A stretch of DNA of 32,398 nucleotides, taken from Candidatus Njordarchaeota archaeon (lineage in GTDB: Archaea > Asgardarchaeota > Njordarchaeia > Njordarchaeales > Njordarchaeaceae). The stretch is from the NCBI GenBank assembly GCA_029856055.1, contig JAHQWF010000025.1, forward strand, positions 1 through 32,398. Direction: 5' to 3'. This document shows positions 553 to 15,358 of this stretch, piece after piece. The notes below the pieces were generated by a model. That model was not told the DNA's origin. It saw nothing but the letters and a program-made list of their open reading frames with translations, and did no database searches. The position numbers and the translations under genes are program-made. How positions within the stretch are numbered: the stretch's first letter is position 1; every line of letters begins with the position of its first letter.

Positions 553-948
553 TTGGAAAATGTTGATTCGAATTTTACAAAGGTAAGTGAGCTTAAGACG
601 AGGTCTAGAGGTGTTAATCTAAGAGTTCATGTCCTGAATATTCTGGAGCCGAGGAGTGTTTTCTCTAGGTATACTGGTGAGCGTCATACTGTTACTGAAG
701 CTTTAGTTGGTGATGATACTGGTACTGTTCTCTTGACTTTGTGGGATAAGGATGGGGAGAAGGTTGAGGTTGGTAAGACTTATGATTTACGTAATGTCAG
801 AGTGACTGTTTTCAAGAATTCTATTAGGTTGAGTTTGGGTAGGAATGGGGAGATTTCTGAGAGTCCTGTTGAGATTTCTGAAGAATCTGTTAATAAGGAT
901 AATAATGTTTCTGAGAAAGTTGTGACCAGGAGTAAGAGTTATTACTAG
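553..948 (+). CDS. ssb: Single-stranded DNA-binding protein, single OB fold (crenarchaeal SSB/RPA-like)
   Basis: KVSELK..VNLRVHVL..VTEALVGDDTGTVLLTLWD..N..V..F...RL.LGRNGEI is the archaeal single-OB SSB signature. GGAGG at 540-544 precedes the TTG start. Confidence 0.9.
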   Translation: MENVDSNFTKVSELKTRSRGVNLRVHVLNILEPRSVFSRYTGERHTVTEALVGDDTGTVLLTLWDKDGEKVEVGKTYDLRNVRVTVFKNSIRLSLGRNGEISESPVEISEESVNKDNNVSEKVVTRSKSYY

Positions 949-957
949 AGTTATTTC

Positions 958-1842
958 TTACTCTAGTTTCTCTAAGCTCTTCTTACTTTTTCCTTTTAAT
1001 ATGTTTTCTACTATGCGTTTCATTTTTAGGGCATCCTGTTCTAGTATTGGAGATTCACTTATTATTGTTGCTTCTAATTCCTCTTCAACCATTATATCTG
1101 CTAGTGGTATGAATTTTGGTCCGTATCCTTCTCCGAGGGGATGGTGTTTTCTCTCGCCTTTTTCCGAGTACTCTATTTTTGTGAAATGTATGTGTAGTGG
1201 GTTGAAAGCTTTTTTACCTATTTCTTCCTCTAGCATCTCTAATATCTTTTCGTAGTCTTTGCGCGTGTTTAGTATTCCCCCCTCACGAGCATGGATATGG
1301 GGGAAATCAAGTACAGGTTTGGAGTTAGGTATCTCTTTTACCATTTCTATAACTTCGTCGAGTGAACCAAGTTGGGATTTCTTACCCATAGTTTCGGGGC
1401 CTATTAATGGTTTTAATTTCTTTTTTCTCGCTAGATCAGCGACCTCTTTTATAGCGTTTATGGCAATTTCTAGTGCTTCGCGCGGTTTCCTTAATCCATA
1501 GTATCCTGGATGGAATACTACTATGTATGCATCTAGCCAATGCGCTACTTCTAGTGCCATTAGTAATCTCTTTTTTGACGCTTCTATTGTTTCTTCTTTT
1601 TCTGAACTGAAGTTTATTGCGTATGGTGCATGTAGTGATAATAATACATCGTTTTCTTTAGCCTCCTTATTTATTTCTAGCGCCTTATCTTTCTTTATGT
1701 TGATTTGCCTTACTTGCTGCACTTCGAGAGCGTTAAGACCTATTTCACGTAGGAATGCTGGGACTTTTACTATATCGCCTTTAAATCCCAGTGGTTTTCC
1801 AGCTGGGCCGAATCTCACTTTTAATTTCTTTGCTGGGGTCAC
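958..1842 (-). CDS. nfo: Endonuclease IV / AP endonuclease family 2 (TIM barrel)
   Basis: Metal-ligand motifs HAPYAIN, FHPGYY, PETMGK, DFPHIH, HIHF, HH and ESP; archaeal-type N-terminus RFGPAG. Confidence 0.88.
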   Translation of the reverse strand: MTPAKKLKVRFGPAGKPLGFKGDIVKVPAFLREIGLNALEVQQVRQINIKKDKALEINKEAKENDVLLSLHAPYAINFSSEKEETIEASKKRLLMALEVAHWLDAYIVVFHPGYYGLRKPREALEIAINAIKEVADLARKKKLKPLIGPETMGKKSQLGSLDEVIEMVKEIPNSKPVLDFPHIHAREGGILNTRKDYEKILEMLEEEIGKKAFNPLHIHFTKIEYSEKGERKHHPLGEGYGPKFIPLADIMVEEELEATIISESPILEQDALKMKRIVENILKGKSKKSLEKLE

Positions 1843-2004
1843 TTAGGTCTCCTTGCCTAATTTGTTGGAGAACTAAACATTTAATCTATTATGTCTTAAT
1901 TCTATGAAATACATGTTTTTTAAGTAAATGAGAAAATTTATTTATGTTTAAAGCGTTTATTTTTGTAAGACTTTATATAGTTTATTTTTGGTAGGAGATC
2001 TTGT

Positions 2005-3078
2005 ATGGAAGAAACTTTAATCAGTGAATCTATTAATTGGTTTCAAGCATTTGTAATGGCTTTATATAGCGTAACAATAATGTTTTTCGGCGTGGGTATT
2101 CTTTCTGAACGATATAGTGAGATAGTATCGCTCTATAATTTGCTGGCTGGTGACTTCTCTCTATATATCGTATGGCTGTCTTATGGTATATTAATTCTAG
2201 GTGTTTTATCCCTAGTTCTAATGGGTTTTTCCCTAGGGTTTCATCACTATGATTATGCTCTAATCTATTTAGGATTAGCCTTTTTATTAACTGGTGTTTT
2301 TGATATCGCTTATCTAGGTATCTTATACCTAGTAGGCACTGCCCCCATGAATAATGTTTTTTATATAGTATTGTTGGCTAGTGTATTGAAATTAGTAGCT
2401 GGCGCCTTGTCTATCAAATTATCTAGAGATTTGGGAGAAAGTCCTAATTTTATCCCGTTAGTAGCTATTGCTCTCGCTATACCATTTATTAGTGGCTTAA
2501 CAGTTTTTATGGATCCTGGCTATACAGCAGCAGATGTATTTGAGATGATTTGGGATTACGCTTACAACACTGTTTCTTTTGGTATACAGGACATTGTGTA
2601 TCTTTCATTAGGGGGTTACTTATCTACGATAGCGATTTTATCAGTATTGTTTTCACTTATCTTAGCCAATAGAGCTGGAGATCCGAGAAGTAGTTTTGGG
2701 GCTAAATTATCATTAACTTTCGGGGCTTTCAGCGGTATACTAGGTATTCTACTTTCATCTCTTGGTAATGCCTTAGAAAAAGCTAAGGAGATCATCATGT
2801 ACAATGTCAATGCTGAATCCTCTGTTCTTAATCATTACTTTGAAGCTTTGAACATAGTCACTTTCTTCGGGTTGCTTTTACTGGCTTTTTTCATTTTATC
2901 AAGTTACTACGTAGTTGTACCTACCCCGAGAGAAGGGAGAAGAGAGAGGTCGGTAGAGGAAACAATCGAGCGCGTTACAGTTACAGCTGAGGAGAAAAAA
3001 GAGGAAGGAGGCGAGGAGATAATTGAAGGGCTCGAGGAACTTGAATTTGAAGAGTTTGAAGATCTAGAAGAATTTTAA
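2005..3078 (+). CDS. Hypothetical polytopic membrane protein with a highly acidic C-terminal tail
   Basis: About 8-9 hydrophobic segments, then EEKKEEGGEEIIEGLEELEFEEFEDLEEF. AGGAG lies upstream of the ATG. No family recognised. Confidence 0.8.
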   Translation: MEETLISESINWFQAFVMALYSVTIMFFGVGILSERYSEIVSLYNLLAGDFSLYIVWLSYGILILGVLSLVLMGFSLGFHHYDYALIYLGLAFLLTGVFDIAYLGILYLVGTAPMNNVFYIVLLASVLKLVAGALSIKLSRDLGESPNFIPLVAIALAIPFISGLTVFMDPGYTAADVFEMIWDYAYNTVSFGIQDIVYLSLGGYLSTIAILSVLFSLILANRAGDPRSSFGAKLSLTFGAFSGILGILLSSLGNALEKAKEIIMYNVNAESSVLNHYFEALNIVTFFGLLLLAFFILSSYYVVVPTPREGRRERSVEETIERVTVTAEEKKEEGGEEIIEGLEELEFEEFEDLEEF

Positions 3079-3150
3079 AGATAAGAGCTATACTTCCTTC
3101 ACTAATATTATTGCTTATATTATTTAATCTAAGCATCGTGGTGATTTGAC

Positions 3151-3612
3151 TTGTCAGCACCTAACGTTGTTTCCTTCTCTATAGTTACGTCTAAAGAGAA
3201 TTTTGCCAGGATATTCCTGGTAGATAGTCCAAGCAATTTGGAGAAGAATATAAATATGGTTAAAGAAGTTTTCTCGAGAACTAACATAAAAGATTTCTTG
3301 GTAAGTTTCAAGAAACTCATTGATAGCTTAAGTGGTGCTGTAGAGGAAAAAGATATAAAAGACGCTGAATGGGTAGTAGCGTTCGATAAGGTTGGTGATA
3401 ATGGGATACTTTTAGTTGACTTAACTAAGCTTGCAGAAAATATGTACTTGCTTTATCTAAGTAGATCTGTCTGGACTAATCCTCGGGATCCTGGAGAGAA
3501 GCAAGTATCTTTTGAGGCGCATTTCTATGCTAAGGATGGTGTAGTTAGGGATTTTCAGAGGGTGCTAATAATTAGAGGGAACGTGATTTATGATGCTCCG
3601 ATAAAGAAATAA
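3151..3612 (+). CDS. Hypothetical protein (153 aa)
   Basis: GGTGA ribosome-binding site 6 nt before the TTG; typical codon usage; converges on the next gene with a 3-nt gap. Confidence 0.7.
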   Translation: MSAPNVVSFSIVTSKENFARIFLVDSPSNLEKNINMVKEVFSRTNIKDFLVSFKKLIDSLSGAVEEKDIKDAEWVVAFDKVGDNGILLVDLTKLAENMYLLYLSRSVWTNPRDPGEKQVSFEAHFYAKDGVVRDFQRVLIIRGNVIYDAPIKK

Positions 3613-3615
3613 TTA

Positions 3616-4125
3616 CTATTCTTTCTCGGGGTAAAATGTTTCTTTTAGGAATTCAAATACTTTATTCCAAGCTTCTTCTAGGTTTTTTCCAATGATTATT
3701 TCATCTAGATACTTGAATCTCGCTGGCTTTAATTTATCTGGTTTTTTATCAATTGCGACAAATACTGCCTTTGTGTTAGGGAACAAGTGCTTAAATATTT
3801 GAGCTGCTTCATTAGCTGAATCAGCAGCTGCCCGTTTAGCGATTGTGTCGACGAGGAATATTATGTAGGGTTTATCTCTCGGGCTTGATCTCCTATATAT
3901 TACTACCCCGATTTTGCTTAAAGCATGCTTTAGTAGTGGTCTCTTTATATCTGAAGTATCTAAGAATCCACCTTCTATCCATGATGTTATTAGTTTACCT
4001 CTATCCACCTTATACATGCCTGCTAGCTTGACGTCTTGTTGCAAGAATTCTTCCTTAAAACCATACATTATCTCTTTCTCTAGATCATTTCTCAGGGATT
4101 CTTTAGGTTTTTTCTTAGAGGACAT
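3616..4125 (-). CDS. Hypothetical alpha/beta protein (169 aa)
   Basis: GGTGA immediately upstream of the ATG; last gene of an apparent nnr operon; protein-like composition. Confidence 0.75.
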   Translation of the reverse strand: MSSKKKPKESLRNDLEKEIMYGFKEEFLQQDVKLAGMYKVDRGKLITSWIEGGFLDTSDIKRPLLKHALSKIGVVIYRRSSPRDKPYIIFLVDTIAKRAAADSANEAAQIFKHLFPNTKAVFVAIDKKPDKLKPARFKYLDEIIIGKNLEEAWNKVFEFLKETFYPEKE

Positions 4126-4142
4126 AAGTCACCACACCAGAA

Positions 4143-4460
4143 TCATAGGTTGTATCTAAGTAACTCCTTATTTTGATATAAAATAATAATGTTCCGTAAT
4201 TCTTTATCGATACTCTCGATAGTTATTTTGAATGATATTTTAGCTAGGCACTGTATACACATACCCGCCGTGCGAATTATATGCAGGTTAATTACAAGCG
4301 ATGTATCTTGTAGTTCATATGAATAACTTACCTTATGGCAAGGATCTGGGGCTATAATGAATCCATTGATTATCAATTTGTTGTCCAGCCTAGTTACTGT
4401 TGCGGTTGAATCAACTGCACTAGTGCATGTAGGTTTTAGTGATTCAAGTTTTATATCCAT
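4143..4460 (-). CDS. Hypothetical small beta-rich protein with four Cys (PTC, PDPC, CIQC)
   Basis: ATG starts 2 nt after the nnr stop, with GAGGT upstream; alternating hydrophobic beta-strand pattern. Confidence 0.7.
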   Translation of the reverse strand: MDIKLESLKPTCTSAVDSTATVTRLDNKLIINGFIIAPDPCHKVSYSYELQDTSLVINLHIIRTAGMCIQCLAKISFKITIESIDKELRNIIILYQNKELLRYNL

Positions 4461-4462
4461 TA

Positions 4463-5983
4463 CTACGTACCTCTAATATCCCTTAACGCTGAAGGTATCT
4501 CATCAATAACATCTGTAGCTAATAGCTCATAGCTTTTTTTCCTGAAAGCTAGATCTCCAGCATAACCAGATACGAAAGCTCCAGCACAAGAAGCTAGGAA
4601 TAAGTCATTGCATTGAGCCATGAATGCAGCGGTTATGCCGGATAAGACATCCCCGGTTCCACCAACGGTCATTCCTGGATTACCAGTAGTGTTAAATTTA
4701 ATAGTTTTCCCATCGGATATGACATCAATATGCCCCTTTAGAATAATTGTGATGCCGTGGTTCTCAGCCATTTTCCTAGTGATCTCTCCTCTGTCCTTGA
4801 GTTCTAGGGGGGGTTTCTCACCAAATAGTATATTAAATTCACCAGCATGAGGCGTAACAACTATTTTTCCTGAAGGAATGCCATGCTTGGCTATAGCTTT
4901 TAATCCATCAGCATCAATAAGGAGAGGAATACCCTTACTAGCAATAAATCTGGCTAGATCAGCTGCTGCTTCCAGAGTTTCCTCGGCCAGCCCTATTCCT
5001 GGCCCCAATACTACAGTGTCGAAATTACTAATTATTGGTTTTAATAGATCTATGTTCTCCAAACCTAGTGAATCGCCAGGCAATGGTTTAACTATTAAAT
5101 TAGGGGAAAACGATCTGATAACATTAGAAATGAGTTCGGGTGCAGCTACAATTACTAAATCAGCCCCAGTTCTAAGAGCCGCCATAGCGGCTAAAGCTGG
5201 TGCGCCAGAGTAATCCTTGCTCCCCCCTATTATTAGTATCCTGCCGAAGTCTCCCTTATGCGACCACTCAGTTCTTTTCTTTAAGCAGTTAATAACATCG
5301 CCTGGACCGACTAATAAATCCGCTTCTGGAGGTATCCCGATACTGCGTATGATTACTTTGCCCACTTCCTCTTTATCAAAACCTTTCTTAGCTTCATGAA
5401 AAGTAATTGTATAATCTGCATTCACCGTCTCTCCTGTTTTTCTCCCCTCAAAAACATTGAAGCCGCTAGGTACATCAATAGAAACTATTTTGAATCCGAC
5501 CTGGTTTTTTAATTTATTTATCTTTCTTATGGCTTCTAATGCTAATCCTCGCGCAGAACCTTTTATACCAACTCCGAGTAAAGCGTCTACTACTACATCT
5601 ACTTTTTCTAGTACTTCTTCTAGTTTATGGATTTTTGATGAGTCATCTATCTCAATGATTTTAATGCTAAATATCATTCTCCTAAGTATCTCATAGTTTT
5701 TTCTGGCTATTTCTGATCTAATTAGTGATGGCTTACCCATTAGGACCACAGTGACATCGTAATTCATTGATGCCAGGTGTCTAGCAGCCACGAAGCCATC
5801 TCCGCCATTATTGCCAGTACCGCATATAACAGCAATTCTTCTCTTATCTCTGAACTTGCTAGCTACGAAATCCGCAACATTTTTTCCAGCGTTCTCCATT
5901 AATAAGAGAGTATCCACGCCTAGAAATTCCGAGTTTTTATCTAATCTATAAACATCGCTTGGTGACAAGTATTCCGGCATCAT
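4463..5983 (-). CDS. nnr: Bifunctional NAD(P)H-hydrate epimerase/dehydratase (YjeF N and C domains)
   Basis: LMENAG, CGTGNNGGDGFVAARHL, VDALLGVG and SIDVPSG (epimerase); SHKGDFG..GGSKDYSGAP, IDADGL, TPHAGEF and GGTGDVLSG (dehydratase). Confidence 0.95.
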   Translation of the reverse strand: MMPEYLSPSDVYRLDKNSEFLGVDTLLLMENAGKNVADFVASKFRDKRRIAVICGTGNNGGDGFVAARHLASMNYDVTVVLMGKPSLIRSEIARKNYEILRRMIFSIKIIEIDDSSKIHKLEEVLEKVDVVVDALLGVGIKGSARGLALEAIRKINKLKNQVGFKIVSIDVPSGFNVFEGRKTGETVNADYTITFHEAKKGFDKEEVGKVIIRSIGIPPEADLLVGPGDVINCLKKRTEWSHKGDFGRILIIGGSKDYSGAPALAAMAALRTGADLVIVAAPELISNVIRSFSPNLIVKPLPGDSLGLENIDLLKPIISNFDTVVLGPGIGLAEETLEAAADLARFIASKGIPLLIDADGLKAIAKHGIPSGKIVVTPHAGEFNILFGEKPPLELKDRGEITRKMAENHGITIILKGHIDVISDGKTIKFNTTGNPGMTVGGTGDVLSGITAAFMAQCNDLFLASCAGAFVSGYAGDLAFRKKSYELLATDVIDEIPSALRDIRGT

Positions 5984-6079
5984 TAAACACTGGCTAGAAC
6001 TTAACTCAGTAGATTAAGTATTAGTAATTTAACTTAAAACATATTTAATCGTAAAATAATCTGATTGAGAACTTCTCCA

Positions 6080-6140
6080 TAAAATGATGAAGCGAACAGA
6101 CTGCGACGTAAAGGATGAGCGTCCCAGCTCTTCTGATCTC
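6080..6140 (+). ncRNA. Box C/D methylation-guide sRNA, predicted to target the 23S rRNA A-loop (U2552, E. coli numbering)
   Basis: C box ATGATGA 6084-6090; guide AGCGAACAGACT; D' GCGA 6103-6106; C' AGGATGA 6112-6118; guide GCGTCCCAGCTCTT; D box CTGA 6133-6136. C-to-D span is 53 nt, a GC-rich island in an AT-rich spacer. Guides complement the conserved 23S sequences CUGUUCGC and GAGCUGGG. Confidence 0.85.
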
Positions 6141-6214
6141 ACCATAAATATATATATGAATCCATGAAAAACAGAAAAAGTACATCAAAAATTAAATCTT
6201 AACAAGCAGAATAG

Positions 6215-7570
6215 GTGAGCAGCATGGGTCAGCAAAAAAAGAAAAAAGTAATAATAATGGGTGCGGCTGGGCGAGACTTCCATAACTTTAACGTATTCTT
6301 CCGAAACAACCCCGAATACGAAGTAGTATGCTTCACCGCAACACAAATCCCAGGAATAGAAGGAAGAACATACCCACCAGAACTAGCAGGACCACAATAC
6401 CCAAACGGAATCCCAATACACCCCGAAAACCAACTACCAGAACTAATAAAGAAACACAACATAGACTACGTAGTATTCAGCTACAGTGATGTTTCTCATC
6501 AGCATGTTATGGATAGAGCAGCTATCGCAGCAGCAGCAGGAGCAAGCTACATGCTGCTCGGACCAAAACACACAATGCTAAAATCAACAAAACCAGTAAT
6601 CGCAATAGGAGCAGTAAGAACAGGAGCAGGCAAATCGACCGTTTCTAGGAAGGTTGCGAGGATTTTTGCTAAGTGTGGCATCAAAGTAGTTGCGGTTAGA
6701 CATCCCATGCCTTATGGGGATTTGAGGAAGCAGATTGTTCAGAGATTCGCTAGTTACGAGGATTTGGATCGTTATAACGTGACATTTGAGGAGCGGGAGG
6801 AATACGAGCATTATATTGATAACGGATTCGTTGTTTATGCTGGAGTAGACTACGAGAAGATACTTAGGGAGGCTGAGAAGGAGGCGGATGTGATTATTTG
6901 GGATGGGGGGAATAACGATTATCCGTTCTACGTACCTGATTTATTCATTGTGGTGGCGGATGCTCTTAGACCGGGGCATGAGTTGACTTATTGGCCTGGA
7001 TCTGTGAATGTAAGAATGGCTGATGTCGTTATAATTAATAAGGCTGCAGAAGCGGATCTTGATTCTATTCTGAAGATTATGAAGAATGTCAAGGCGGTTA
7101 ATGAAAAAGTTCGCATACTAATTGGGGTATCAACATTGAAAGTGGATGATCCGAGCATGATTGAGGGTAAGAGAGTTATAGTGGTTGAGGATGGTCCAAC
7201 AGTTACTCATGGAGAAATGCCTTTTGGAGCAGGATATGTTGCCTCGATAATGTATGGTGCTAGGGAGATAGTTGATCCTAGGAAGTGGGTTAAACCTGGC
7301 ACGGATCTAGCTATGGCTTATGAGAAGTATAAACATATGAAGAATGTCTTGCCTACATTGGGTTACTCCGATAAGGAGAAGAAGGAGGTCGAGGAGGTTA
7401 TTAATGCTGCTGATGCTGATGTAGTTGTTTCAGGTACGCCTATCGACTTATCTAGAGTTTTAAAAGTGAATAAACCGATAGTTAGGGTTAGATATGAGCT
7501 TGAGGAATCAGGTGACAAGAAGCTAGAAGAGATAATTGGCGAGTTCTTAAAGAATAAAGGTTTGTTATAG
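6215..7570 (+). CDS. arcE: COG2403 P-loop protein (cyclic 2,3-diphosphoglycerate synthetase-like family), probably arginine synthetase type
   Basis: GAAGRDFHNFN, FTATQIP, P-loop AVRTGAGKS, RHPMPYGDL, EEREEYE, WDGGNND, VEDGPT.THG. The start may be the ATG at 6224. The specific function is inferred from family resemblance. Confidence 0.75.
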   Translation: MSSMGQQKKKKVIIMGAAGRDFHNFNVFFRNNPEYEVVCFTATQIPGIEGRTYPPELAGPQYPNGIPIHPENQLPELIKKHNIDYVVFSYSDVSHQHVMDRAAIAAAAGASYMLLGPKHTMLKSTKPVIAIGAVRTGAGKSTVSRKVARIFAKCGIKVVAVRHPMPYGDLRKQIVQRFASYEDLDRYNVTFEEREEYEHYIDNGFVVYAGVDYEKILREAEKEADVIIWDGGNNDYPFYVPDLFIVVADALRPGHELTYWPGSVNVRMADVVIINKAAEADLDSILKIMKNVKAVNEKVRILIGVSTLKVDDPSMIEGKRVIVVEDGPTVTHGEMPFGAGYVASIMYGAREIVDPRKWVKPGTDLAMAYEKYKHMKNVLPTLGYSDKEKKEVEEVINAADADVVVSGTPIDLSRVLKVNKPIVRVRYELEESGDKKLEEIIGEFLKNKGLL

Positions 7571-7651
7571 CTATATCTAATTAATTTTTTATTTAGTTTA
7601 GTTTTTAGGATAAGGTTATTCTTGTTATGTTTTCATGTAAAGGTAATCTCA

Positions 7652-8569
7652 ATGTTCGATGTTTCAGCTATAGGGAATCCTGTTTACGATATTATTATTA
7701 CTCCTTATGTCAGAACGAATGGTAGAGTGCTTTCTGGCTGTAGTACTAATGCAGCTCTAACTGTTGGTAAATTAGGTGGCAAAGCAGCTTTAATTGGGAA
7801 GATTGGGGATGACTTTAGGGATGACTTCATTTCTGTTGCTAGGAATTATGGTGTTACGCCGTTCCCGTTAGCTTCAAGGGAGACTGGAGGTTTCTATCTA
7901 AGATATATAGATGCAAGGATGAATGATAGAGAGTTACGGGTCTTAGGTATTGCTGATAAGATAAAGTTCGAGGAGGTTCCGAAAGAGGCATTGGAATCCA
8001 AATCGATAGTTCTAGGCCCAATTTTAAAAGAGTTGTCGCTTGATTTCGTTAAATCTCTGGTAAATGAGAATGCAGATAGCTTGATTGTGGTTGATCCCCA
8101 GGGATTAATTCGAGAGATTATAGATGGTAAGGTGGTTAGGGTGGCTAATAAGGAGACATATGAAATCATTAGGTTAACGCATGTCACTAAGCCAAATGAG
8201 CATGAGGCTGAAGTTCTCTTCCCAGGAATGGATATGCCGAGAATAGCTAAGAAGATCTATGAATTAAACAATTTTGCTGGTATAGTGACTGTGGCTGAGA
8301 GAGGATCTTACATAGCGTTTGATAAAGGGATATATCATGTACCAGCTTACAGAACTATTGAGCGTGATCCAACGGGATGCGGTGATGTCTATGCTGGTGC
8401 ATTCGCATACTATTTCATTAAGTACCAGGATTTACTAGAATCAGCTATATTCGCATCTGCAGCTGCATCATTCATGGTGGAAAGCACAGGGCCAGGATTC
8501 TCCATCGATCTTAGCAAAGTCATGGAGAGGTTTGAGGCATTACAAGAAAATGTGAAGAAGGTGTCTTGA
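7652..8569 (+). CDS. PfkB/ribokinase-family carbohydrate kinase
   Basis: IGNPVYD, GKIGDD, VDPQG, KPNEHE, VTVAERGS and anion hole DPTGCGDVY. I prefer the ATG at 7652 (AAGGT upstream) to the TTG at 7622. Confidence 0.88.
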   Translation: MFDVSAIGNPVYDIIITPYVRTNGRVLSGCSTNAALTVGKLGGKAALIGKIGDDFRDDFISVARNYGVTPFPLASRETGGFYLRYIDARMNDRELRVLGIADKIKFEEVPKEALESKSIVLGPILKELSLDFVKSLVNENADSLIVVDPQGLIREIIDGKVVRVANKETYEIIRLTHVTKPNEHEAEVLFPGMDMPRIAKKIYELNNFAGIVTVAERGSYIAFDKGIYHVPAYRTIERDPTGCGDVYAGAFAYYFIKYQDLLESAIFASAAASFMVESTGPGFSIDLSKVMERFEALQENVKKVS

Positions 8570-9153: not shown

Positions 9154-11565
9154 CTAAAGTATAATGCCTATTTTTGAATCACTTATATCTATAATTATGC
9201 CTTCCTTGGGTTCACCAAGAATTATTTTCTCACAATTATGCATTGCTTTGATATCCATAATAAATGGTTCAAGCGCCTCGGGTAAGTAAAGTTTCTTAAC
9301 AGGGGATTTAAGAGATAAATTCTTCGCCTTCTTCGCTTTCCATATAGCTGAGTTAACGCTTCGTAGTAATCCCGTTAACTCGAGTAACTCGGATTTCACT
9401 GCAAATGGTTCAGGGAAATGTTCAAGATGAATTGTCTTACCGTAGAGTTCCCGGTACAAGTAATCAGTAATAAAAGGTGTCACTGGCGCTAGCAACTTTA
9501 ACACAGTTTTTAACACTAGATGTAACGTCCACCAAGCTGCTTTCTGCTCTTTTTTAGAACCAATGGATCCGTATGCACGTGATTTAACTAATTCTATATA
9601 GTGATCAGCGAATATATCCCACACGAAATCCCTCACATAATTCACAGCAAAGAAATCTAGATCATCATAAAGTACTTTCACGCGATTAATTAAGTTACTT
9701 AATTCAGCTAGAATCCACTCATCACTGCTGCTTAACTCGATCTCGTCTCTTGAAGGCTCGGGGAACGATGAAATAAACCTAGCTATACTATAGAGTTTCT
9801 GAATAAATTTAGCGGCGCCCGCAATCCTATTCTCAGAAACCATTATATCTGCTCCCAACCTAGTCTCAGCAGCCCCCGCAAACCTCAAAGCATCAGCACC
9901 ATATTTCTTTACAAGTGGCTCAGGATAAATGATGTTACCAAGACTCTTACTCATTTTTCTACCATGCTCGTCCATCACTAATCCTGAAATCCAGACGTGC
10001 TTAAACGCGGGTTGCTTAGTAAGTTGATAAACACGAAGCAAAGTATAGTATAACCATGTTCTCACAATTTCTTTACCTTGAGGACGCAAACCAACCGGAA
10101 AAGCTCTCTTAAATAACTCTTCATCCCTAAGGTAACCAGAAATGAAAAGCGCTGAGATACTACTATCAAACCAAGTATCAAATGTACGCCACTCGCCTTT
10201 GAATTTTCTAGAACCACATACCGGACAGGCTTTGATAGGCGGGGGTTCGCGCCAAGGCTGATAATACTTACCAGGTTTAGGCAATATAACATGATCGTTC
10301 TCGCAATACCACAGAGGAACCTCGGTACCATAGTATCTCCTACGGGAAATGGGCCAATCAGATTTAACAGATTTAATCCAATTAATCAACATCTGCTTAT
10401 TATGAGCTGGATGAAACCTAATCATATCCGAGATCCTTAACACGTCCTCCAGGAAATCCAGCTGCTTAAGATAGTACTCTCGCATACTAATGAACTCAAT
10501 CCTAGTTTTACATCTCCAACAAATGGGAACCTTATGCTCTATTCTCTCAATCTTCTCAACGAGTCCTTGCTCCATCAAATTCTCTATAATCCTTTTGCGA
10601 GCCTCGGCAACAAGCAAGCCAGCGTATTTACCAGCTGCTTCTGTCATCCTAGCTTCAGTATTAATCGCCTTAACAGGCTTTAACCCAAGTTCACGGAACA
10701 ATCTAATATCCACCGTATCACCATAGGAACAAAGCATCATGGCGCCAGTACCAAACTCTGGATCCACCTCCTTATGGGGAATAATTGGTATCTCCTTATT
10801 GTAAGTTGGGACAATAGCTCTCTTACCATGCAGATGGGTGTATCTATCATCATCGGGATGAACTAGAATAGCGGCGCAAGCACAAAGTAATTCAGGCCGT
10901 GTAGTAGCAATAATTAAAGAGTCGCTTGAATTCTTGATCCCAAACCTAATGTACACTAAACTTGTTTCTTCTTCAGCATACTCAACCTCAGCATCAGCCA
11001 AAGTAGTATGACACCGGGGACACCAGTTATTAGGACGCTCATCCTCATAAATAAGCCCACGCTTCCACAACTCAATAAAAGTAGCTTGAGTCAAACTCCT
11101 ATACTTGGGGGAATCAGTACGATAAATCTCATCAGGTGAAAGAGAATTCATTGAAAAACCAAGCCGTCTACTAATAGTCAAGATATCATTCTCATATTTA
11201 TCCAACAACTCCCTACACAATTCAAGAAACTTATCTCTAGGAGTCTCAGTCATCCTAATCCCATGAATCTTCTCCACCTGAACCTCAACAGGCAAACCAT
11301 TCCTATCAATCCCCATAGGGAACAAAACCTCGAAACCCTTCATTCTCATCAAACGAGCAATGCTATCTATGGCCGCATAATGATACGCAAAACCCATATG
11401 AGGCGTCCCAGAAGCGTACGGGGGAGGCGTATCGATGGAGAATACGGGTTTTGGTGAGTTTTTGTTGAATCCATATATGCCCTCTTCTTCCCACTTCTTT
11501 ATGAGTTCTTCTTCTTTTTTTATGTCCCATTTTTTTTCCTTGAGCTTTGGTTTGTATTGCGACAA
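9154..11565 (-). CDS. valS: Valine--tRNA ligase, archaeal type
   Basis: FSIDTPPPY, HIGH-like HMGF, WCPRCHT, IATTRPEL, FGTGAMM, DWPISRRRYYG, DTWFDSS, RPQGKEIVRTW, KMSKS. GGAGGGG precedes the TTG start. Confidence 0.96.
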   Translation of the reverse strand: MSQYKPKLKEKKWDIKKEEELIKKWEEEGIYGFNKNSPKPVFSIDTPPPYASGTPHMGFAYHYAAIDSIARLMRMKGFEVLFPMGIDRNGLPVEVQVEKIHGIRMTETPRDKFLELCRELLDKYENDILTISRRLGFSMNSLSPDEIYRTDSPKYRSLTQATFIELWKRGLIYEDERPNNWCPRCHTTLADAEVEYAEEETSLVYIRFGIKNSSDSLIIATTRPELLCACAAILVHPDDDRYTHLHGKRAIVPTYNKEIPIIPHKEVDPEFGTGAMMLCSYGDTVDIRLFRELGLKPVKAINTEARMTEAAGKYAGLLVAEARKRIIENLMEQGLVEKIERIEHKVPICWRCKTRIEFISMREYYLKQLDFLEDVLRISDMIRFHPAHNKQMLINWIKSVKSDWPISRRRYYGTEVPLWYCENDHVILPKPGKYYQPWREPPPIKACPVCGSRKFKGEWRTFDTWFDSSISALFISGYLRDEELFKRAFPVGLRPQGKEIVRTWLYYTLLRVYQLTKQPAFKHVWISGLVMDEHGRKMSKSLGNIIYPEPLVKKYGADALRFAGAAETRLGADIMVSENRIAGAAKFIQKLYSIARFISSFPEPSRDEIELSSSDEWILAELSNLINRVKVLYDDLDFFAVNYVRDFVWDIFADHYIELVKSRAYGSIGSKKEQKAAWWTLHLVLKTVLKLLAPVTPFITDYLYRELYGKTIHLEHFPEPFAVKSELLELTGLLRSVNSAIWKAKKAKNLSLKSPVKKLYLPEALEPFIMDIKAMHNCEKIILGEPKEGIIIDISDSKIGIIL

Positions 11566-11953
11566 TAAGGCATCCCCTCCCTGTCTGTTTTGGTTGTGTT
11601 TTGTCTATGTAGTGTTTTAGTTTTCTTTTTTAATATATTTTTTTCTAAAAGGGAAGAAAATTCGCTAAGATTGACTCTGATTTTACTGTTACTTGTTTTT
11701 AAGTTAATAAACTGAGTATGGTCTCGCATCAGTATTTGAGATATTGAGGAGTGTTATAGATCAATTTCTTCTGTAAGAATTTCTTGATTAAAGTTATGTA
11801 ATCTAATTTTCTTAGGATTTGATGATTGGGTTTGGGTTTCTAATTGTTTATTTTTTATTGATACTAAAAATTGATATCTAGAATATTGAGTGTAAATTTT
11901 TATCATTCCTCTATTATTTTATTTAGTGTATCCAACTTTTAAGGTGTAATTAA

Positions 11954-12628
11954 ATGCTTACGCAGATAAAGAAGAAGGCTTTAACCGAGATGGTGGCTAA
12001 AGATTTATTGGAGAAATATGGCGTTAATTTCCCTAAGAGAGCTATCGCTAAGAAGCGTGAGGAGGTTGCTGAGAAAGCTAAACAAGTGGGGTTCCCATTA
12101 GTAATGAAAATACTTTCTCCCGATATAATACATAAAACGGATGTTGGGGGAGTAGTGCTGGATATAAAGAGTGAGGAAGAGGCTCTTAAGGCGTGGGGCG
12201 AGATCATGAGTAATGTTAAGAAGAAAGCGCCTAAAGCGAGGATTGAGGGTGTTTTATTGGAAGAAATGGTTTCGGGAGGTTATGAAGTGATAATTGGTGG
12301 TTTACGTGATCCAGTTTTTGGACCAGTCGTGATGTTTGGGGGTTTAGGAGGGATCTATGTAGAGCTTTTTGAGGATGTTTCATTCAGATTAGCACCAATC
12401 GATGAATTGGAGGCTGAAGAAATGCTTAAGGAGACCAAGGGTTATAAGATTCTCACCGGTTATAGGGGTATGCCTAAGGGGGATATAGAAGGGTTAAAGA
12501 AGTTGCTTGTTACTGTGTCTAAAATTATGGCTGAGCGGGAGGATATTCTTGAGTTGGATCTCAACCCAGTTAGAGTTTTTCCAGATAGGGTAGTCGTACT
12601 GGACGCTAAGATAATAGTTCGTGGGTGA
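11954..12628 (+). CDS. acdB: Acetate/acyl-CoA ligase (ADP-forming) beta subunit, ATP-grasp
   Basis: GFPLVMKILSPDIIHKTDVGGV, EVIIG..RDPVFGPVVMFG.LGGIYVE..EDVSFRLAP, ELDLNP, VLDA. Confidence 0.92.
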   Translation: MLTQIKKKALTEMVAKDLLEKYGVNFPKRAIAKKREEVAEKAKQVGFPLVMKILSPDIIHKTDVGGVVLDIKSEEEALKAWGEIMSNVKKKAPKARIEGVLLEEMVSGGYEVIIGGLRDPVFGPVVMFGGLGGIYVELFEDVSFRLAPIDELEAEEMLKETKGYKILTGYRGMPKGDIEGLKKLLVTVSKIMAEREDILELDLNPVRVFPDRVVVLDAKIIVRG

Positions 12629-12634
12629 ATTATA

Positions 12635-12886
12635 CTGGCTGATAATTCGATTGATAGATTAATTATTTTTATTCTAATATTATTTGCATGGGTTTTATTG
12701 GCTCTTGCTATTCCTTATGCGGCTTCACTAGCGTTAAAATATGTGTTGCGTACGATTAATCCTATTATAAGTAGCTTTATTTTGTTAGCTTTCTTAATTG
12801 TATTTGTGGTTACTTTATATCTATGGTTTTATATGGCTAGAAAATATGTGGAGTATAGAGTGAGAAGATTAAGGAGTGTTGAGTGA
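12635..12886 (+). CDS. Small two-TM membrane protein, probably CTG-initiated (83 aa)
   Basis: The frame of ORF 12698-12886 stays open back to a CTG at 12635, 6 nt after GGGTGA (12623-12628). The extension ADNSIDRLIIFILILFAWVL completes the first TM helix. Confidence 0.6.
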   Translation: MADNSIDRLIIFILILFAWVLLALAIPYAASLALKYVLRTINPIISSFILLAFLIVFVVTLYLWFYMARKYVEYRVRRLRSVE

Positions 12887-13269
12887 GTGTTATGTTTAGT
12901 ACTGGTTTCTTGGCTTACTTGAATTATCTTGTCTTGTTCTTTATTTTCCTCGTTATATATGGGTTAATGGCCTCCCTGTTTTATTATTCTCGGAGGCTGG
13001 ATTTTGAGTCTATAAAAGTTATTTCCGTGTTATCTGTTGTTTTTGTTTTAATAAAGATTGTTCTTGATTATGCTAATGTGTTTATTAGAGTGTTTTTTGA
13101 TTTATCACCGTTGATTTATCTCATTGATGCGTTTTGCTTGATCTTACTATCTCATTATCTAGATGTACCGCAAAGGTATTTACGTAGGATATCATGCATT
13201 TTTGTGTCAGTTATCTTGGCTGTGATTTTATATGACTTAACTTTTCTTCTCTTAGCTAGTTTAGTATAG
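12883..13269 (+). CDS. Hypothetical four-TM membrane protein
   Basis: Four hydrophobic segments; GTGA start/stop overlap with the previous ORF; lies within the acdB-mtnA run. Confidence 0.7.
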   Translation: MSVMFSTGFLAYLNYLVLFFIFLVIYGLMASLFYYSRRLDFESIKVISVLSVVFVLIKIVLDYANVFIRVFFDLSPLIYLIDAFCLILLSHYLDVPQRYLRRISCIFVSVILAVILYDLTFLLLASLV

Positions 13270-13283
13270 TGTAGTGAGCGGAG

Positions 13284-14402
13284 ATGAGAGTAATTCTTGA
13301 TGGTAAAGAATTAGATATTAGGGCTATTTGGTTAGAGGATAGGGATAGAGGAATAGTTAAGATGATTGATCAGAGGGTTCTTCCTTGGAAACTAGATTTT
13401 TTTGTGAGTAGATCTAGCGAAGATACCGCTATGGCGATTGAGAGGATGATTGTCAGAGGTGCGCCTACCATAGGGGTAACGGGGGCTTATGGAGTATACC
13501 AAGCTGTTCTTGAAAGTATTAATGAGAGAGAATTCATTGAGGTTCTTGAGGGAAAAGTTAAGAGGATTCAGCAAACTAGGCCGACGGCAGTTAACTTATT
13601 CAATGTGACTGAAAAGATGTTTCTTGAGATTAAGAAGCGTTACGAGGGGGGCTATTCTAGCAGGGAGATTATTGAGGTCGCTTATGACCTAGCTGAAAGG
13701 ATTGCTGACAAGGAAGTTGAGGCAAACAGAAAAATTGGTGAATATGGTGAGAAATTAATTAGGGATGGATCATCTATTCTAACGCATTGTAATGCTGGGG
13801 CATTAGCAGCTGTTGACATAGGTACAGCACTAGCACCGATAAGAACCGCGTATAAGAAAGGGAAAAAATTGGTTGTCTATGTAGATGAAACTAGACCTTG
13901 GTTACAGGGCGCTAGATTAACAGCATGGGAACTAGAGATGGAGGGGATACCTTACTATTTGATTTCTGATAATGCTGCGGGTTACTATATGTGGCGAGGG
14001 GAAATAGATCTTGTGATTGTGGGGGCGGATAGAATAACAAGGGGTGGAGACATTGCTAATAAGATAGGTACCTATAAACTTGCAGTAGTAGCTAATGAAA
14101 ATGGAATTCCTTTCTATGTTGCTGCTCCACTATCTACTTTCGATATGAGGATACAAGCAGGTAGTGAAATCCCCATCGAGGAAAGAAGTAGCGATGAGAT
14201 ACTTTATGTCAGAGGATATGATGATGATTTAATGGAAGTAAGGAGAGTGCTTGTTAGCTTGAAGGAGGCGAAAGTAAGAAATCCTGTTTTTGATATTACG
14301 CCGAGCAAATATGTCACAGGGATAATCACAGAGTTTGGCGTTCTAAAAAGTGAGAGGGATATTGAAGAAGCATTATCTAGATACAGGATTGATCATGATT
14401 GA
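13284..14402 (+). CDS. mtnA: S-methyl-5-thioribose-1-phosphate isomerase (eIF2B alpha/beta/delta family)
   Basis: IDQRVLP, VRGAPTIG, RPTAVNL, THCNAGALA, ETRPWLQGARLTAWEL, GADRI, NKIGTY, NPVFDITP. Confidence 0.93.
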   Translation: MRVILDGKELDIRAIWLEDRDRGIVKMIDQRVLPWKLDFFVSRSSEDTAMAIERMIVRGAPTIGVTGAYGVYQAVLESINEREFIEVLEGKVKRIQQTRPTAVNLFNVTEKMFLEIKKRYEGGYSSREIIEVAYDLAERIADKEVEANRKIGEYGEKLIRDGSSILTHCNAGALAAVDIGTALAPIRTAYKKGKKLVVYVDETRPWLQGARLTAWELEMEGIPYYLISDNAAGYYMWRGEIDLVIVGADRITRGGDIANKIGTYKLAVVANENGIPFYVAAPLSTFDMRIQAGSEIPIEERSSDEILYVRGYDDDLMEVRRVLVSLKEAKVRNPVFDITPSKYVTGIITEFGVLKSERDIEEALSRYRIDHD

Positions 14403-14410
14403 TTTAGATA

Positions 14411-15283
14411 TCATGTCATAGCAATTAGGTTTTGTTCCAACAAGAATGAAGCTATTTCTTCTATTTCTTCAACCGTTATTTCTCTTATGCGCTTATGCAT
14501 GTTTATTTTTCTTTCTAGCTTAGCTAGTAAATCTCTCCAATCCCTAACTTTCTCTTTAATAAATTGTTTAAGGATTGATCTAATTTTTTTATTTGTGGAT
14601 GCCGAGAACAAGATGCTTGTTGTTTTCTCGAATACCTCAAAGCGGACTTTATGTTGTTTTCTATCAGGCCAAATTTTGATCATCATTGAATCGACATCGG
14701 GTGTAGGAAAGAAATATTTGCGGGGAATAAACTCTATTATTTTCCCTTTTGCGAAATATTTGAATGCAGCGGAAATTCTACCCCAGTTTTTAGAACCAGG
14801 GTTTGACAGTAATTTCTTAACGTAATCTTGCTGGAGTATTAATATCGCGTGCCTGAAGTTTTCTCTGATGAATGATTCCTTAAGCATTTTTATAATTAAT
14901 TGAGATATGATGTTGTACGGGGGATTAGAAACAATAACATTTACGTCTTGGGGGAACTCGTACTTAAGCACATCGCACTGGATTATTTCGATCTTGCTGA
15001 GTAATTCACTGTTGCGGAGCCTCCATCTCATAGCGGAGACAAGTTTTTCATCTATCTCAATGGCATATACTTTTCTAGCGATTTTAGCTAGCTCTTCGGT
15101 TAAGTAACCTAATCCCGCCCCGATATCGAGCGCGACATCGTCCGCCTTAAGATCAGCTACTTTCACTTCTAAGTCAATTATTCTTTCTGAAATTATGAAG
15201 TGCTGACCCATCTCTGGTCTTAGAATTATACCAAAAGCGGAACAAATGTGCTCTATTTCTAGTCTTAGATTCAAGTAAATCAC
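14411..15283 (-). CDS. rsmA: 16S rRNA adenine dimethyltransferase KsgA/Dim1
   Basis: GQHF, DIGAGLGYLT, AIEID, SNPPYNI, WGRIS, F.PTPDVDS. Confidence 0.92.
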   Translation of the reverse strand: MIYLNLRLEIEHICSAFGIILRPEMGQHFIISERIIDLEVKVADLKADDVALDIGAGLGYLTEELAKIARKVYAIEIDEKLVSAMRWRLRNSELLSKIEIIQCDVLKYEFPQDVNVIVSNPPYNIISQLIIKMLKESFIRENFRHAILILQQDYVKKLLSNPGSKNWGRISAAFKYFAKGKIIEFIPRKYFFPTPDVDSMMIKIWPDRKQHKVRFEVFEKTTSILFSASTNKKIRSILKQFIKEKVRDWRDLLAKLERKINMHKRIREITVEEIEEIASFLLEQNLIAMT

Positions 15284-15292
15284 TTTTTAGTA

Positions 15293-15358
15293 AATATCAG
15301 TATTTTTTTCAATTTTCTTCATCGGTTGGACTCAGATGGTGGCGATCTCCTCATTTAA
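15293..15358 (-). ncRNA. Box C/D sRNA candidate directly upstream of rsmA
   Basis: Minus strand: C ATGAGGA (15354-15348), guide GATCGCCACCAT, D' CTGA (15335-15332), C' ATGAAGA (15322-15316), A-rich spacer, D CTGA (15300-15297). Span is 58 nt, with all four boxes in canonical order. Confidence 0.7.

What the first reader, a model, noticed from the sequence alone, without database searches (positions are those of the whole stretch)
6280..6960. Abrupt A/C-to-G/T synonymous-site switch inside one conserved gene
Seen: from about 6280 to 6484 nearly every third codon position is A or C (ttc cga aac aac ccc gaa tac gaa gta gta tgc ttc acc gca aca caa atc cca gga...). A short T/G island follows at 6485-6513, A/C resumes to about 6636, then T/G endings dominate (gtt tct agg aag gtt gcg agg att ttt gct aag tgt...). 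The protein stays intact and GC content changes little, so this is a strand (amino/keto) asymmetry rather than a foreign-GC island. Inference: a focal, bidirectional, strand-asymmetric mutational footprint with origin-like polarity (keto-rich running 3' away from the centre on both strands). It could mark a recurrent site of DNA synthesis initiation, break resection/repair or recombination. I know no described mechanism at this sub-kb scale.
Basis: partly seen in the sequence, partly recalled or inferred. Interest (0 to 1): 0.8.

Follow-up and report, generated by a model that had tools for sequence, protein, structure and literature searches.

The report
Sharp strand-skew switch inside archaeal gene
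A conserved archaeal gene switches abruptly from almost pure A/C to mostly G/T at its silent codon positions, and this turns out to be one of several real, inherited, kilobase-scale DNA-strand composition domains whose cause is not yet known.

Summary
In the 451-aa gene at 6215-7570(+), 66 of 69 third positions in 6280-6484 are A/C, 9 of 9 in 6485-6513 are G/T, 36 of 41 in 6514-6636 are A/C, and 222 of 312 after that are G/T. No codon-shuffled null came close.

It is not a mis-join. Independently built contigs span the gene without a difference, and a sister species at 93% protein identity has the same tract, island and switch.

It is not unique either. Fructose-bisphosphate aldolase/phosphatase, ValRS, an actin-like gene, a RuvB-like ATPase and thermosome carry similar tracts, and relatives have them in other genes. 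The domains follow the DNA strand, not the gene: they cross intergenic DNA and genes of opposite orientation, with mirror-image composition.

Four-fold sites keep the genome's AT/GC ratio, so this is an old equilibrium state, not a recent burst of transitions. Flanking skew does not flip at the switch, so it is not a chromosomal replication origin.

Best reading (about 0.5): a long-lived, local, strand-asymmetric substitution pressure around fixed switch points, filtered by protein selection. The trigger is unresolved. No description was found in five literature searches.

The parts
6215..7570 (+). Intact 451-aa gene for a P-loop protein that carries the switch. It gives only a weak CbiA/ParA-type nucleotide-binding hit and matches no NCBIfam model.
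   Evidence: ORF. Pfam PF01656 at E 6e-4, below its cut-off. 0 NCBIfam families. Orthologues found in 25 of 31 related genomes, the window's own genome included.
6280..6484 (+). First A/C ('amino') arm: 66 of 69 third positions are A/C. In the sister species it already starts near 6251.
6485..6513 (+). G/T island: 9 of 9 third positions are G/T, and all 10 codons are identical in the sister species, where the island runs on to about 6529. It can be read as the short keto arm of a first switch at 6484/6485.
   Evidence: The searches show four keto-to-amino differences at 6517, 6520, 6524 and 6529 in this genome relative to G005 and to contigs of runs X3 and X4.
6514..6636 (+). Second A/C arm: 36 of 41 third positions are A/C.
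6634..6639 (.). Main switch point, between codons AAA and TCG of the Walker-A-like GAGKST motif. It lies at the same codon in the sister species.
6637..8400 (+). G/T ('keto') arm. It is 66-72% keto at third positions in 300-nt bins up to 7500 (222 of 312 over 6637-7570), runs into the next co-directional gene (7571-8566), and falls to background by about 8400. It is purer in the sister species.
10975..11433 (-). Second domain in the window. This is the keto tract of the valine-tRNA ligase gene (9157-11604, minus strand), codons 57-210, with 133 of 153 third positions keto in the gene's own sense. On the + strand this reads as amino. A weaker bias continues down to about 9600.
   Evidence: The sister species has it over codons ~60-380.
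11434..12625 (+). Opposite arm of the second domain, keto-rich on the + strand. It covers the first 57 codons of ValRS (which are A/C-ending in that gene's own sense), the intergenic DNA, and the divergent + strand gene 11954-12625 (keto3 0.67).

Best explanation
The switch is the centre of a real, inherited, kilobase-scale domain of DNA-strand asymmetry. Left of a fixed point (6636/6637, with a minor one at 6484/6485) the + strand has lost nearly all G and T wherever the protein allows. Right of it the + strand is enriched in G and T. Equivalently, each strand is keto-rich 3' of the centre.

The most likely cause is a long-lived, locally confined, strand-asymmetric substitution pressure that drives amino to keto changes (C to T and A to G) on the strand that is repeatedly exposed or resynthesised on each side. 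Purifying selection on the protein removes almost all amino-acid changes, so the pressure shows mainly at silent sites.

Shown: the domain exists, is heritable, follows the strand rather than the gene, is at compositional equilibrium, and is one of a family of such domains in this lineage.

Inferred: the pressure is mutational or repair-related rather than selective, and it arises from recurrent local opening of the duplex. The most plausible source of opening is divergent or antisense transcription, or R-loops, starting at the switch in a thermophile, where single-stranded C and A deaminate quickly. A short, non-chromosomal DNA-synthesis bubble or error-prone repair synthesis running outward from a recurrent break would give the same geometry.
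For: 1. Reality. Logan contigs of runs X1 (3319 nt, depth 148) and X2 cover 6000-7571 and 6000-7495 with 0 differences. Runs from two other studies hold the gene: X3 has a piece over 6362-6706 that bridges the switch with 14 differences, and X4 has a 5952-nt contig with 169 differences.

2. Inheritance. The orthologue in G005 (93% protein identity) has the same tract, island and switch. The same holds for the aldolase/phosphatase gene and ValRS. Orthologues in four other same-genus genomes lack the tracts. So do the other 79 of the 80 loci fetched for this gene; the one that has it, L109, is G005's own contig.

3. Strand level.
- In the aldolase/phosphatase locus the + amino domain covers a minus-strand small gene (keto-ending in its own sense), 420 nt of intergenic DNA (A .47, C .21, G .09, T .23) and codons 1-258 of the + gene.
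- The + keto domain in that locus covers the rest of the gene and a convergent minus-strand gene that is A/C-ending over at least 300 codons in G005.
- The ValRS domain in the window does the same.
- The synonymous first position of Leu also shifts: CTA .49 against TTA .22 in amino tracts (n=68 Leu codons), versus .20 against .38 in the background.

4. Mirror symmetry and equilibrium. Four-fold sites are A .71, C .24, G .02, T .03 in amino tracts. They are T .77, G .16, A .04, C .03 in keto tracts. Background is A .37, C .12, G .14, T .38. The AT/GC ratio is kept, as expected for a long-standing bias and not for a fresh wave of transitions, which would give about 1:1.

5. Persistence since the split from G005.
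- Within the A/C arms, 8 of 14 silent third-position differences are A<->C. Only 6 involve a keto base, 5 of them transitions.
- Within-class transversions are comparable in count outside the arms: 20 G<->T differences in 310 codons. That these are similar per four-fold site is my estimate, since the number of four-fold sites was not counted.
- So the tract is not younger than the rest of the gene; transitions out of the class are suppressed.

6. The bias decays with distance from the switch.

7. Amino-acid changes derived in G000+G005 inside amino tracts run keto to amino 11 times and the reverse 2 times.

8. No enriched 5- or 6-mer in tract DNA (best z 3.7), no RNA fold signal (z +0.5) and no Rfam match.
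Against: 1. In keto tracts the derived amino-acid changes do not follow the bias: 4 amino to keto against 8 keto to amino. The amino-versus-keto contrast is not significant (Fisher p 0.38).

2. Intergenic DNA inside a domain is far less pure (32% keto) than four-fold sites beside it (about 5%). A pure mutation bias should purify unconstrained DNA at least as much, unless that DNA is constrained.

3. The G/T island is identical in both species despite lying inside an A/C arm, which suggests local constraint or a second centre.

4. Sense transcription alone predicts a keto-rich coding strand from the start of the gene. The A/C head needs a dominant antisense transcript, for which there is no direct evidence.

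5. The polarity rule is weakly founded. At |step| >= 17 of 25 there are 5 independent loci, all amino to keto. At 15-16 there are 9 against 5. Synonymous shuffles themselves gave 15 up against 3 down at >= 15.

6. No cis-element was found at the switches.
Confidence: 0.5

Rival explanations
1. Selection on the nucleic acid itself. One strand is kept free of G/T (and the other of A/C) because the DNA or a transcript needs it, for example to prevent intrastrand pairing, to control R-loop formation, or to suit a strand-specific binding protein. Silent sites are the only freedom the genes leave.
For: Purity and boundaries have been kept in two species since their split, and the G/T island is identical in both. 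Intergenic DNA in a domain reaches only the same overall level (about one third keto) as coding DNA, not the purity of four-fold sites. Amino-acid changes in keto tracts show no directional bias.
Against: No enriched oligomer, no fold signal and no known RNA family. The tracts sit in unrelated genes and differ between close lineages, which is hard to square with a fixed function. In G000 the arms are partly decayed relative to G005. The mirror-image equilibrium composition is what a mutational balance predicts.
Confidence: 0.2
2. Recombination mosaic or biased gene conversion. The gene is pieced together from alleles written in two codon 'dialects', or heteroduplex repair is biased by base class. 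An example would be the archaeal mismatch nuclease NucS/EndoMS. From recall, it cuts G- or T-containing mismatches but not A:C. Repeated exchange at conserved motifs would then drive one strand to A/C.
For: The switches fall at conserved motifs (the P-loop here, and a site just before the PPPY motif in ValRS) where crossovers between diverged alleles are easiest. Edge differences between G000 and its relatives come in contiguous same-direction clusters: six amino-to-keto transitions in 6251-6290 and four keto-to-amino changes in 6517-6529. A NucS gene is present in the genome. Only silent sites are affected, as expected if the raw material is standing variation.
Against: No donor with such a dialect is known. 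Protein identity to genus relatives is the same inside and outside the tract (0.74 against 0.71-0.73). Both partitions place G000+G005 next to the same genus relatives. Within-class transversion counts are comparable inside and outside the tract, so the tract is not a recent import. No simple repair scheme I could write down gives the observed polarity (inference).
Confidence: 0.12
3. Translational codon selection: a fast or slow codon ramp, or wobble versus Watson-Crick decoding, acting on the mRNA of this gene.
For: A/C-ending against G/T-ending codons coincide with Watson-Crick against wobble pairing for G34 and U34 tRNAs (established knowledge). The A/C part lies at the 5' end of several genes.
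Against: The domains continue into intergenic DNA and into opposite-strand genes with the complementary pattern. The synonymous first position of Leu shifts too. The purity is far beyond any known codon-usage selection.
Confidence: 0.03
4. Assembly or consensus artefact: a chimeric join at about 6640, or a base chosen systematically among strain variants.
For: The genome is a 147-contig, 78%-complete metagenome bin. Several tract genes lie near contig ends.
Against: Logan contigs of two runs cover the whole gene with 0 differences, at depths 148 and 96. Contigs from two further studies carry the same structure. A separate species bin has the same tract with 14 silent differences. An artefact of chemistry cannot respect codons.
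Confidence: 0.02

Closest known systems
Strand asymmetry of vertebrate mitochondrial DNA (AC-rich L strand, GT-rich H strand)
   Same: Third positions of genes are strongly A/C-biased on one strand. This is attributed to deamination of C and A on the strand left single-stranded (abstract of PMC1794132 seen in the listing; the mechanism is from established knowledge). The compositions of the two strands mirror each other.
   Different: There the asymmetry covers a whole 16-kb genome with one replication mode. Here it is confined to arms of 0.2-1.5 kb inside a chromosome of at least 1.5 Mb, flips sign at fixed internal points, and reaches higher purity (2-3% each of G and T at four-fold sites).
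Skew jumps at replication origins (bacterial oriC, archaeal origins, skew jumps in human and yeast)
   Same: Same sign change: each strand is G/T-rich 3' of the centre, and the step is sharp.
   Different: Origin skew persists along the replichore and is small (SkewDB gives about 2.5% for GC skew, abstract of PMC8941118 in the listing). Here the flanks have the same sign on both sides of the switch, and the bias decays within 1-2 kb.
Transcription-associated strand asymmetry, and promoter-proximal hypermutation of the immunoglobulin type
   Same: The non-template strand becomes G/T-rich, with a sharp 5' boundary and a decay over 1-2 kb downstream (recalled from established knowledge, not from a call). 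The keto arm of this gene behaves this way.
   Different: The first 140 codons of the same gene have the opposite sign, so an antisense unit starting at the switch would be required. The magnitude is also far greater than reported transcription-coupled skews.
Kataegis, or strand-coordinated clustered mutation by cytosine deaminases on single-stranded DNA
   Same: Kilobase-scale, strand-coordinated changes that switch strand at a centre.
   Different: Those are single events that hit all codon positions, are C-specific with a sequence context, and switch with break-resection polarity. Here both A and C are depleted, only silent sites are saturated, four-fold sites are at AT/GC equilibrium, and the polarity is the opposite of tail deamination.

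Membership tests
Chromosomal replication origin (skew switch) | Amino-to-keto sign change of strand skew at a point | tested here: met
   Third-position keto fraction on the + strand goes from 0.02-0.30 to 0.72-0.80 across 6636.
Chromosomal replication origin (skew switch) | Opposite long-range skew in the two flanks (the two replichores) | tested here: not met
   The + strand is keto-rich (0.5-0.76) from 900 to 5700 and again from 7500 to 8400 and from 12000 to 15300.
Chromosomal replication origin (skew switch) | Origin-recognition repeats or an orc1/cdc6 gene beside the switch | not tested
   No repeat search was run at the switch. The neighbours are an NAD(P)H-hydrate repair-type gene and a sugar kinase, judged by eye from the translations.
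Transcription-associated strand asymmetry | Coding (non-template) strand G/T-rich along the transcription unit | tested here: inconclusive
   Met for 6637-7570 and beyond. The opposite holds for codons 22-140 of the same gene.
Transcription-associated strand asymmetry | A transcript start at the boundary of the asymmetry | not testable with these tools
   No RNA run holds the stretch. Contigs cannot show starts.
Deaminase hypermutation cluster (kataegis-like) | A recent burst of transitions hitting all codon positions | tested here: not met
   Four-fold sites are A .71 / C .24 and not about 1:1. The protein is intact and as similar to relatives inside the tract as outside it.
Horizontally acquired or mosaic gene segment | The segment has a different phylogenetic affinity, or lower identity to close relatives, or a different GC content | tested here: not met
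   Identity to four genus relatives is 0.74 in the tract against 0.71-0.73 elsewhere. The partition trees keep G000+G005 beside the same relatives, though resolution is low for the 129-column partition. GC is 0.42-0.47 against 0.42.
Assembly chimera | Independent contigs or reads break at the junction | tested here: not met
   Contigs of X1, X2 and X4 run through it, and an X3 piece covering 6362-6706 bridges it.
Translational codon-usage selection | The pattern follows the reading frame and sense strand of the gene only | tested here: not met
   Opposite-strand neighbours and intergenic DNA share the strand bias. The first position of Leu shifts as well.

The most novel reading that the evidence does not exclude
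These archaea, whose closest relatives are labelled as Asgard lineages of the Njordarchaeum kind, carry fixed, heritable sites scattered through housekeeping genes where the duplex is repeatedly opened and one strand on each side is exposed or resynthesised. Examples would be dispersed, eukaryote-like local initiation sites, or persistent bidirectional R-loop or antisense-promoter hot spots. This has gone on long enough to drive silent sites to about 95-97% strand purity. The tracts would then be a sequence-only map of a DNA transaction that has not been described in archaea.
Probability: 0.25. Interest if true: 0.9.

Novelty: new variant of a known kind. Interest (0 to 1): 0.75.

Why it matters
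Strand compositional skew is normally a weak, genome-scale signal used to find replication origins or to infer transcription-coupled damage. Here it is local (0.2-1.5 kb per arm), almost saturated, sharply bounded at single codons, and conserved between species. It is superimposed on essential genes without harming them.

If it is mutational, it reveals fixed hot spots of single-strandedness or resynthesis in uncultured thermophilic archaea close to the eukaryotic stem, readable from sequence alone.

If it is selective, it reveals an unknown constraint on silent sites strong enough to override codon usage over hundreds of codons.

There are practical consequences either way. Such tracts violate the stationarity assumed in codon models and nucleotide phylogenies of these much-debated lineages. 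They distort dS estimates: silent divergence here is about 12% of codons in the tract against 34% outside it. They may also contribute to assembly breaks in conserved genes.

Tried and rejected
**Replication origin.** Rejected as the main reading because the flanking skew does not flip.

**Break resection followed by deamination of the 3' tails.** Rejected on polarity, by inference. Error-prone repair synthesis outward from a break keeps the right polarity and is not excluded.

**Intein or homing-endonuclease site at the P-loop.** The 26 longer homologues found are fusions with carbamate kinase, ornithine aminotransferase and the like. None has an intein domain listed. The tool itself says finding none is weak evidence. 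The residue after the switch is Ser here, but Val, Ile or Asp at three other switches.

**Repeated motif in the tracts.** None found.

**Motif at the switches by eye.** None found.

**RNA structure or a known RNA family.** None found.

**Foreign donor.** Not supported.

**Step statistic for polarity.** With half-windows of 25 codons it has little power. At threshold 15 the whole genome gave 8 up and 0 down, but one synonymous shuffle also gave 8 up and 1 down. A first threshold of 19 found almost nothing.

**Divergent upstream neighbour.** 7 of 10 tract genes chosen after the fact have one, against 410 of 1057 genes genome-wide. My own binomial estimate is about 0.05. This is a hint only.

**Expression.** No RNA holder was listed for the stretch, so nothing can be said about expression.

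**G005 sample.** A sample of 148 kb showed no extreme 40-codon window, although two other contigs of that genome do carry tracts.

**Literature.** Five searches listed nothing that describes such tracts. I saw only listings and abstract starts and read no paper in full, and supplements are closed. The claim that this is not in print rests on those searches alone.

Full report
**What is there.** The window is contig C5 of a 1.55-Mb, 147-contig genome bin with 35% GC. The finding lies in an intact 451-aa ORF at 6215-7570(+). It encodes a P-loop protein with only a sub-threshold CbiA/ParA-type Pfam hit and no NCBIfam model. Counted in frame:

| Segment | Third positions |
|---|---|
| 6280-6484 | 66 of 69 A/C |
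| 6485-6513 | 9 of 9 G/T |
| 6514-6636 | 36 of 41 A/C |
| 6637-7570 | 222 of 312 G/T |

GC stays at 0.38-0.47 across these segments. The genome-wide third-position G/T share is 51%.

**Chance.** The longest run of A/C-ending codons is 53, and the poorest 65-codon window has one G/T-ending codon. None of 100,000 redraws from genome codon usage (longest run 21, poorest window 14) reached these values. Neither did any of 20,000 within-gene synonymous shuffles (longest run 20, poorest window 17).

**Not an artefact.** Logan contigs are built independently from public runs.
- Contigs of X1 and X2 cover 6000-7571 (X1, 3319-nt contig, depth 148) and 6000-7495 (X2, depth 96) with 0 differences. These two runs may be the source of the bin.
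- Runs from two other studies hold the gene. X3 has a piece over 6362-6706 with 14 differences that bridges the switch. X4 has a 5952-nt contig over 6224-7569 with 169 differences.
- All these runs are labelled sediment or hydrothermal-vent metagenomes.
- G005, a different species of the same genus (93% protein identity), has the same A/C tract, the same G/T island and the same switch codon, and its G/T part is purer.

**Who it is.** Record titles of the nearest relatives read 'Promethearchaeati archaeon' and 'Candidatus Njordarchaeum guaymaensis'. The lineage is therefore of the Njordarchaeales kind, an Asgard group whose placement is debated (listing).

**Specific to a clade at this gene, but general as a phenomenon.**
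- At this gene, orthologues in four other same-genus genomes show no tract. Of the 80 loci fetched for this gene, only L109, which is G005's own contig, has it; the other 79 do not.
- Within G000 there are other sharply bounded tracts. They occur in fructose-1,6-bisphosphate aldolase/phosphatase (about 241 codons with 16 G/T-ending, followed by G/T), valine-tRNA ligase in this same window, an actin-like gene, a RuvB-like AAA+ ATPase, thermosome and others.
- The aldolase/phosphatase and ValRS tracts are again shared with G005 and absent from the other genus members.
- G001 has tracts of its own, in EF-2 and RtcB. G007 (same order) and the complete genome G014 (same phylum) show the same signature.

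Counts of 40-codon windows by number of G/T-ending codons:

| Source | At most 3 G/T-ending | At least 37 G/T-ending | Windows |
|---|---|---|---|
| G000 (whole genome) | 168 | 102 | 384,859 |
| G001 | 60 | 94 | 100,924 |
| 79 diverse loci | 8 | 0 | 79,747 |

**Strand level, not gene level.**
- In the aldolase/phosphatase locus the A/C-rich stretch of the + strand begins in a small minus-strand gene, which is G/T-ending in its own sense. It runs through about 420 nt of intergenic DNA and through codons 1-258 of the + gene.
- The G/T-rich stretch in that locus runs through the rest of that gene, a 32-nt spacer, and a convergent minus-strand gene. That gene is A/C-ending in its own sense over at least 300 codons in G005.
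- In the window, the ValRS domain likewise spans the head of a minus-strand gene, the spacer and a divergent + gene.
- The synonymous first position of Leu shifts with the tract.

Together these observations exclude translational selection as the cause.

**Nature of the bias.** Composition at four-fold sites:

| Sites | A | C | G | T |
|---|---|---|---|---|
| Amino tracts | .71 | .24 | .02 | .03 |
| Keto tracts | .04 | .03 | .16 | .77 |
| Background | .37 | .12 | .14 | .38 |

The two tract types are mirror images, and both keep the background AT/GC ratio. A recent wave of transitions would give about equal A and C. The tracts therefore look like an equilibrium under a persistent force.

Between G000 and G005, the 119 codons of the two A/C arms and the G/T island between them have 102 identical, 14 silent and 3 replacement differences. 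The 310 downstream codons have 179, 106 and 25. Of the 14 silent differences, 8 are A<->C. The downstream part has 20 G<->T differences. By my estimate, within-class transversions are about equally frequent per four-fold site in both parts. The tract is then as old as the rest of the gene, and what is missing is transitions out of the class.

Relative to G005 and to the contigs of X3 and X4, G000 has four keto-to-amino changes in 13 nt at the 3' edge of the island. Relative to G005 it also has six amino-to-keto transitions in 6251-6290 at the 5' edge of the tract. The fuzzy boundaries therefore move, while the amino-to-keto switches stay fixed.

**Geometry.** Across each clear switch, the + strand goes from 2-30% to 60-96% keto at third positions, and the bias fades within 1-2 kb. 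The strongest junctions all run amino to keto in the 5'-to-3' direction. These are the focal locus (seen in both G000 and G005), the RuvB-like ATPase gene on contig C64, L068, L040 and L115, and all have a step of at least 17 of 25. However, five weaker steps run the other way, and the shuffled null is itself lopsided, so the rule is only suggestive. Long-range skew has the same sign on both sides of 6636, which argues against a chromosomal origin.

**Mutation or selection.**
- For mutation: derived amino-acid changes in amino tracts run 11 keto-to-amino against 2 the other way. There is no motif, no fold and no RNA family. Tracts turn over between lineages.
- Against mutation: keto tracts show 4 against 8 in the wrong direction. 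Intergenic DNA inside a domain is only 68% amino. The island is perfectly conserved.

I therefore put about 0.5 on a local strand-asymmetric substitution pressure, 0.2 on nucleic-acid-level selection and 0.12 on recombination or repair bias. NucS is present in the genome, but its mismatch preference is recalled and was not tested. The remainder goes to translation or artefact.

**Trigger.** Divergent or antisense transcription from the switch fits the polarity, the sharp inner edge and the decay. It also fits the fact that 7 of 10 tract genes have a divergent upstream neighbour, against 39% of genes genome-wide. That set was chosen after the fact and the excess is marginal. The model could not be tested because no RNA run was listed.

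**Comparison with the known.** The closest analogues are mitochondrial strand asymmetry, origin skew jumps, transcription-coupled asymmetry and kataegis. Each shares the amino/keto logic or the geometry, but none combines local scale, near-saturation, equilibrium composition and conservation between species. Five literature searches listed no description of such tracts. I saw only listings and abstract starts.

**Verdict.** This is a new variant of strand compositional asymmetry whose mechanism remains open.

Noticed in passing
window 9157-12625: A second bipartite strand domain lies in the same window. ValRS (minus strand) has 57 A/C-ending codons followed by 153 codons with 133 G/T-ending. 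The opposite arm runs on into the divergent + gene. The sister species has the G/T tract over about 320 codons.
   Followed up: yes
window 6215-7570 (protein): Longer homologues of this P-loop protein are fused to carbamate kinase (PF00696), ornithine aminotransferase (PF00202) or ornithine/aspartate carbamoyltransferase domains. This hints at a role in arginine or ornithine metabolism rather than the cyclic-diphosphoglycerate synthetase I first guessed.
   Followed up: no
window 1-32398: There is a background strand skew. Third positions of + strand genes are mostly 48-67% G/T, and those of minus-strand genes are mostly 30-49% in their own sense (ValRS is the exception). The + strand of this contig is therefore moderately keto-rich throughout, as for a leading strand.
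   Followed up: partly
window 12698-13269: A raw G/T-rich stretch here is explained by two small, very hydrophobic ORFs (rich in Phe, Leu, Val and Ile). It reflects amino-acid composition and not a silent-site tract.
   Followed up: partly
L097 18143-18766 and L103 19457-19999 (G007): These ORF-like stretches have over 90% A/C at every third position, and their translations look odd and low in complexity. They may be spurious ORFs in A/C-rich non-coding DNA, where stop codons are rare.
   Followed up: no
L078 7580-8362 and 16157-17281 (G014): Two glycosyltransferase-like genes about 8 kb apart on the same strand of a complete genome are tracts over their whole length. One is about 90% A/C-ending and the other about 80% G/T-ending.
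   Followed up: partly
L192 (G001 C1 327348-329771) and L193/L196 (G006): The ValRS match in G001 contains one in-frame TGA. G006, listed with 12% contamination, holds two ValRS copies (65% and 67% identity to the query), which suggests two strains in that bin.
   Followed up: no
G000 C147 9295-9561 (L013 793-990): A small minus-strand ORF with a CPxC...CPxC zinc-ribbon-like end sits between two + strand genes, inside the A/C domain upstream of the aldolase/phosphatase gene. It is conserved in G005.
   Followed up: no
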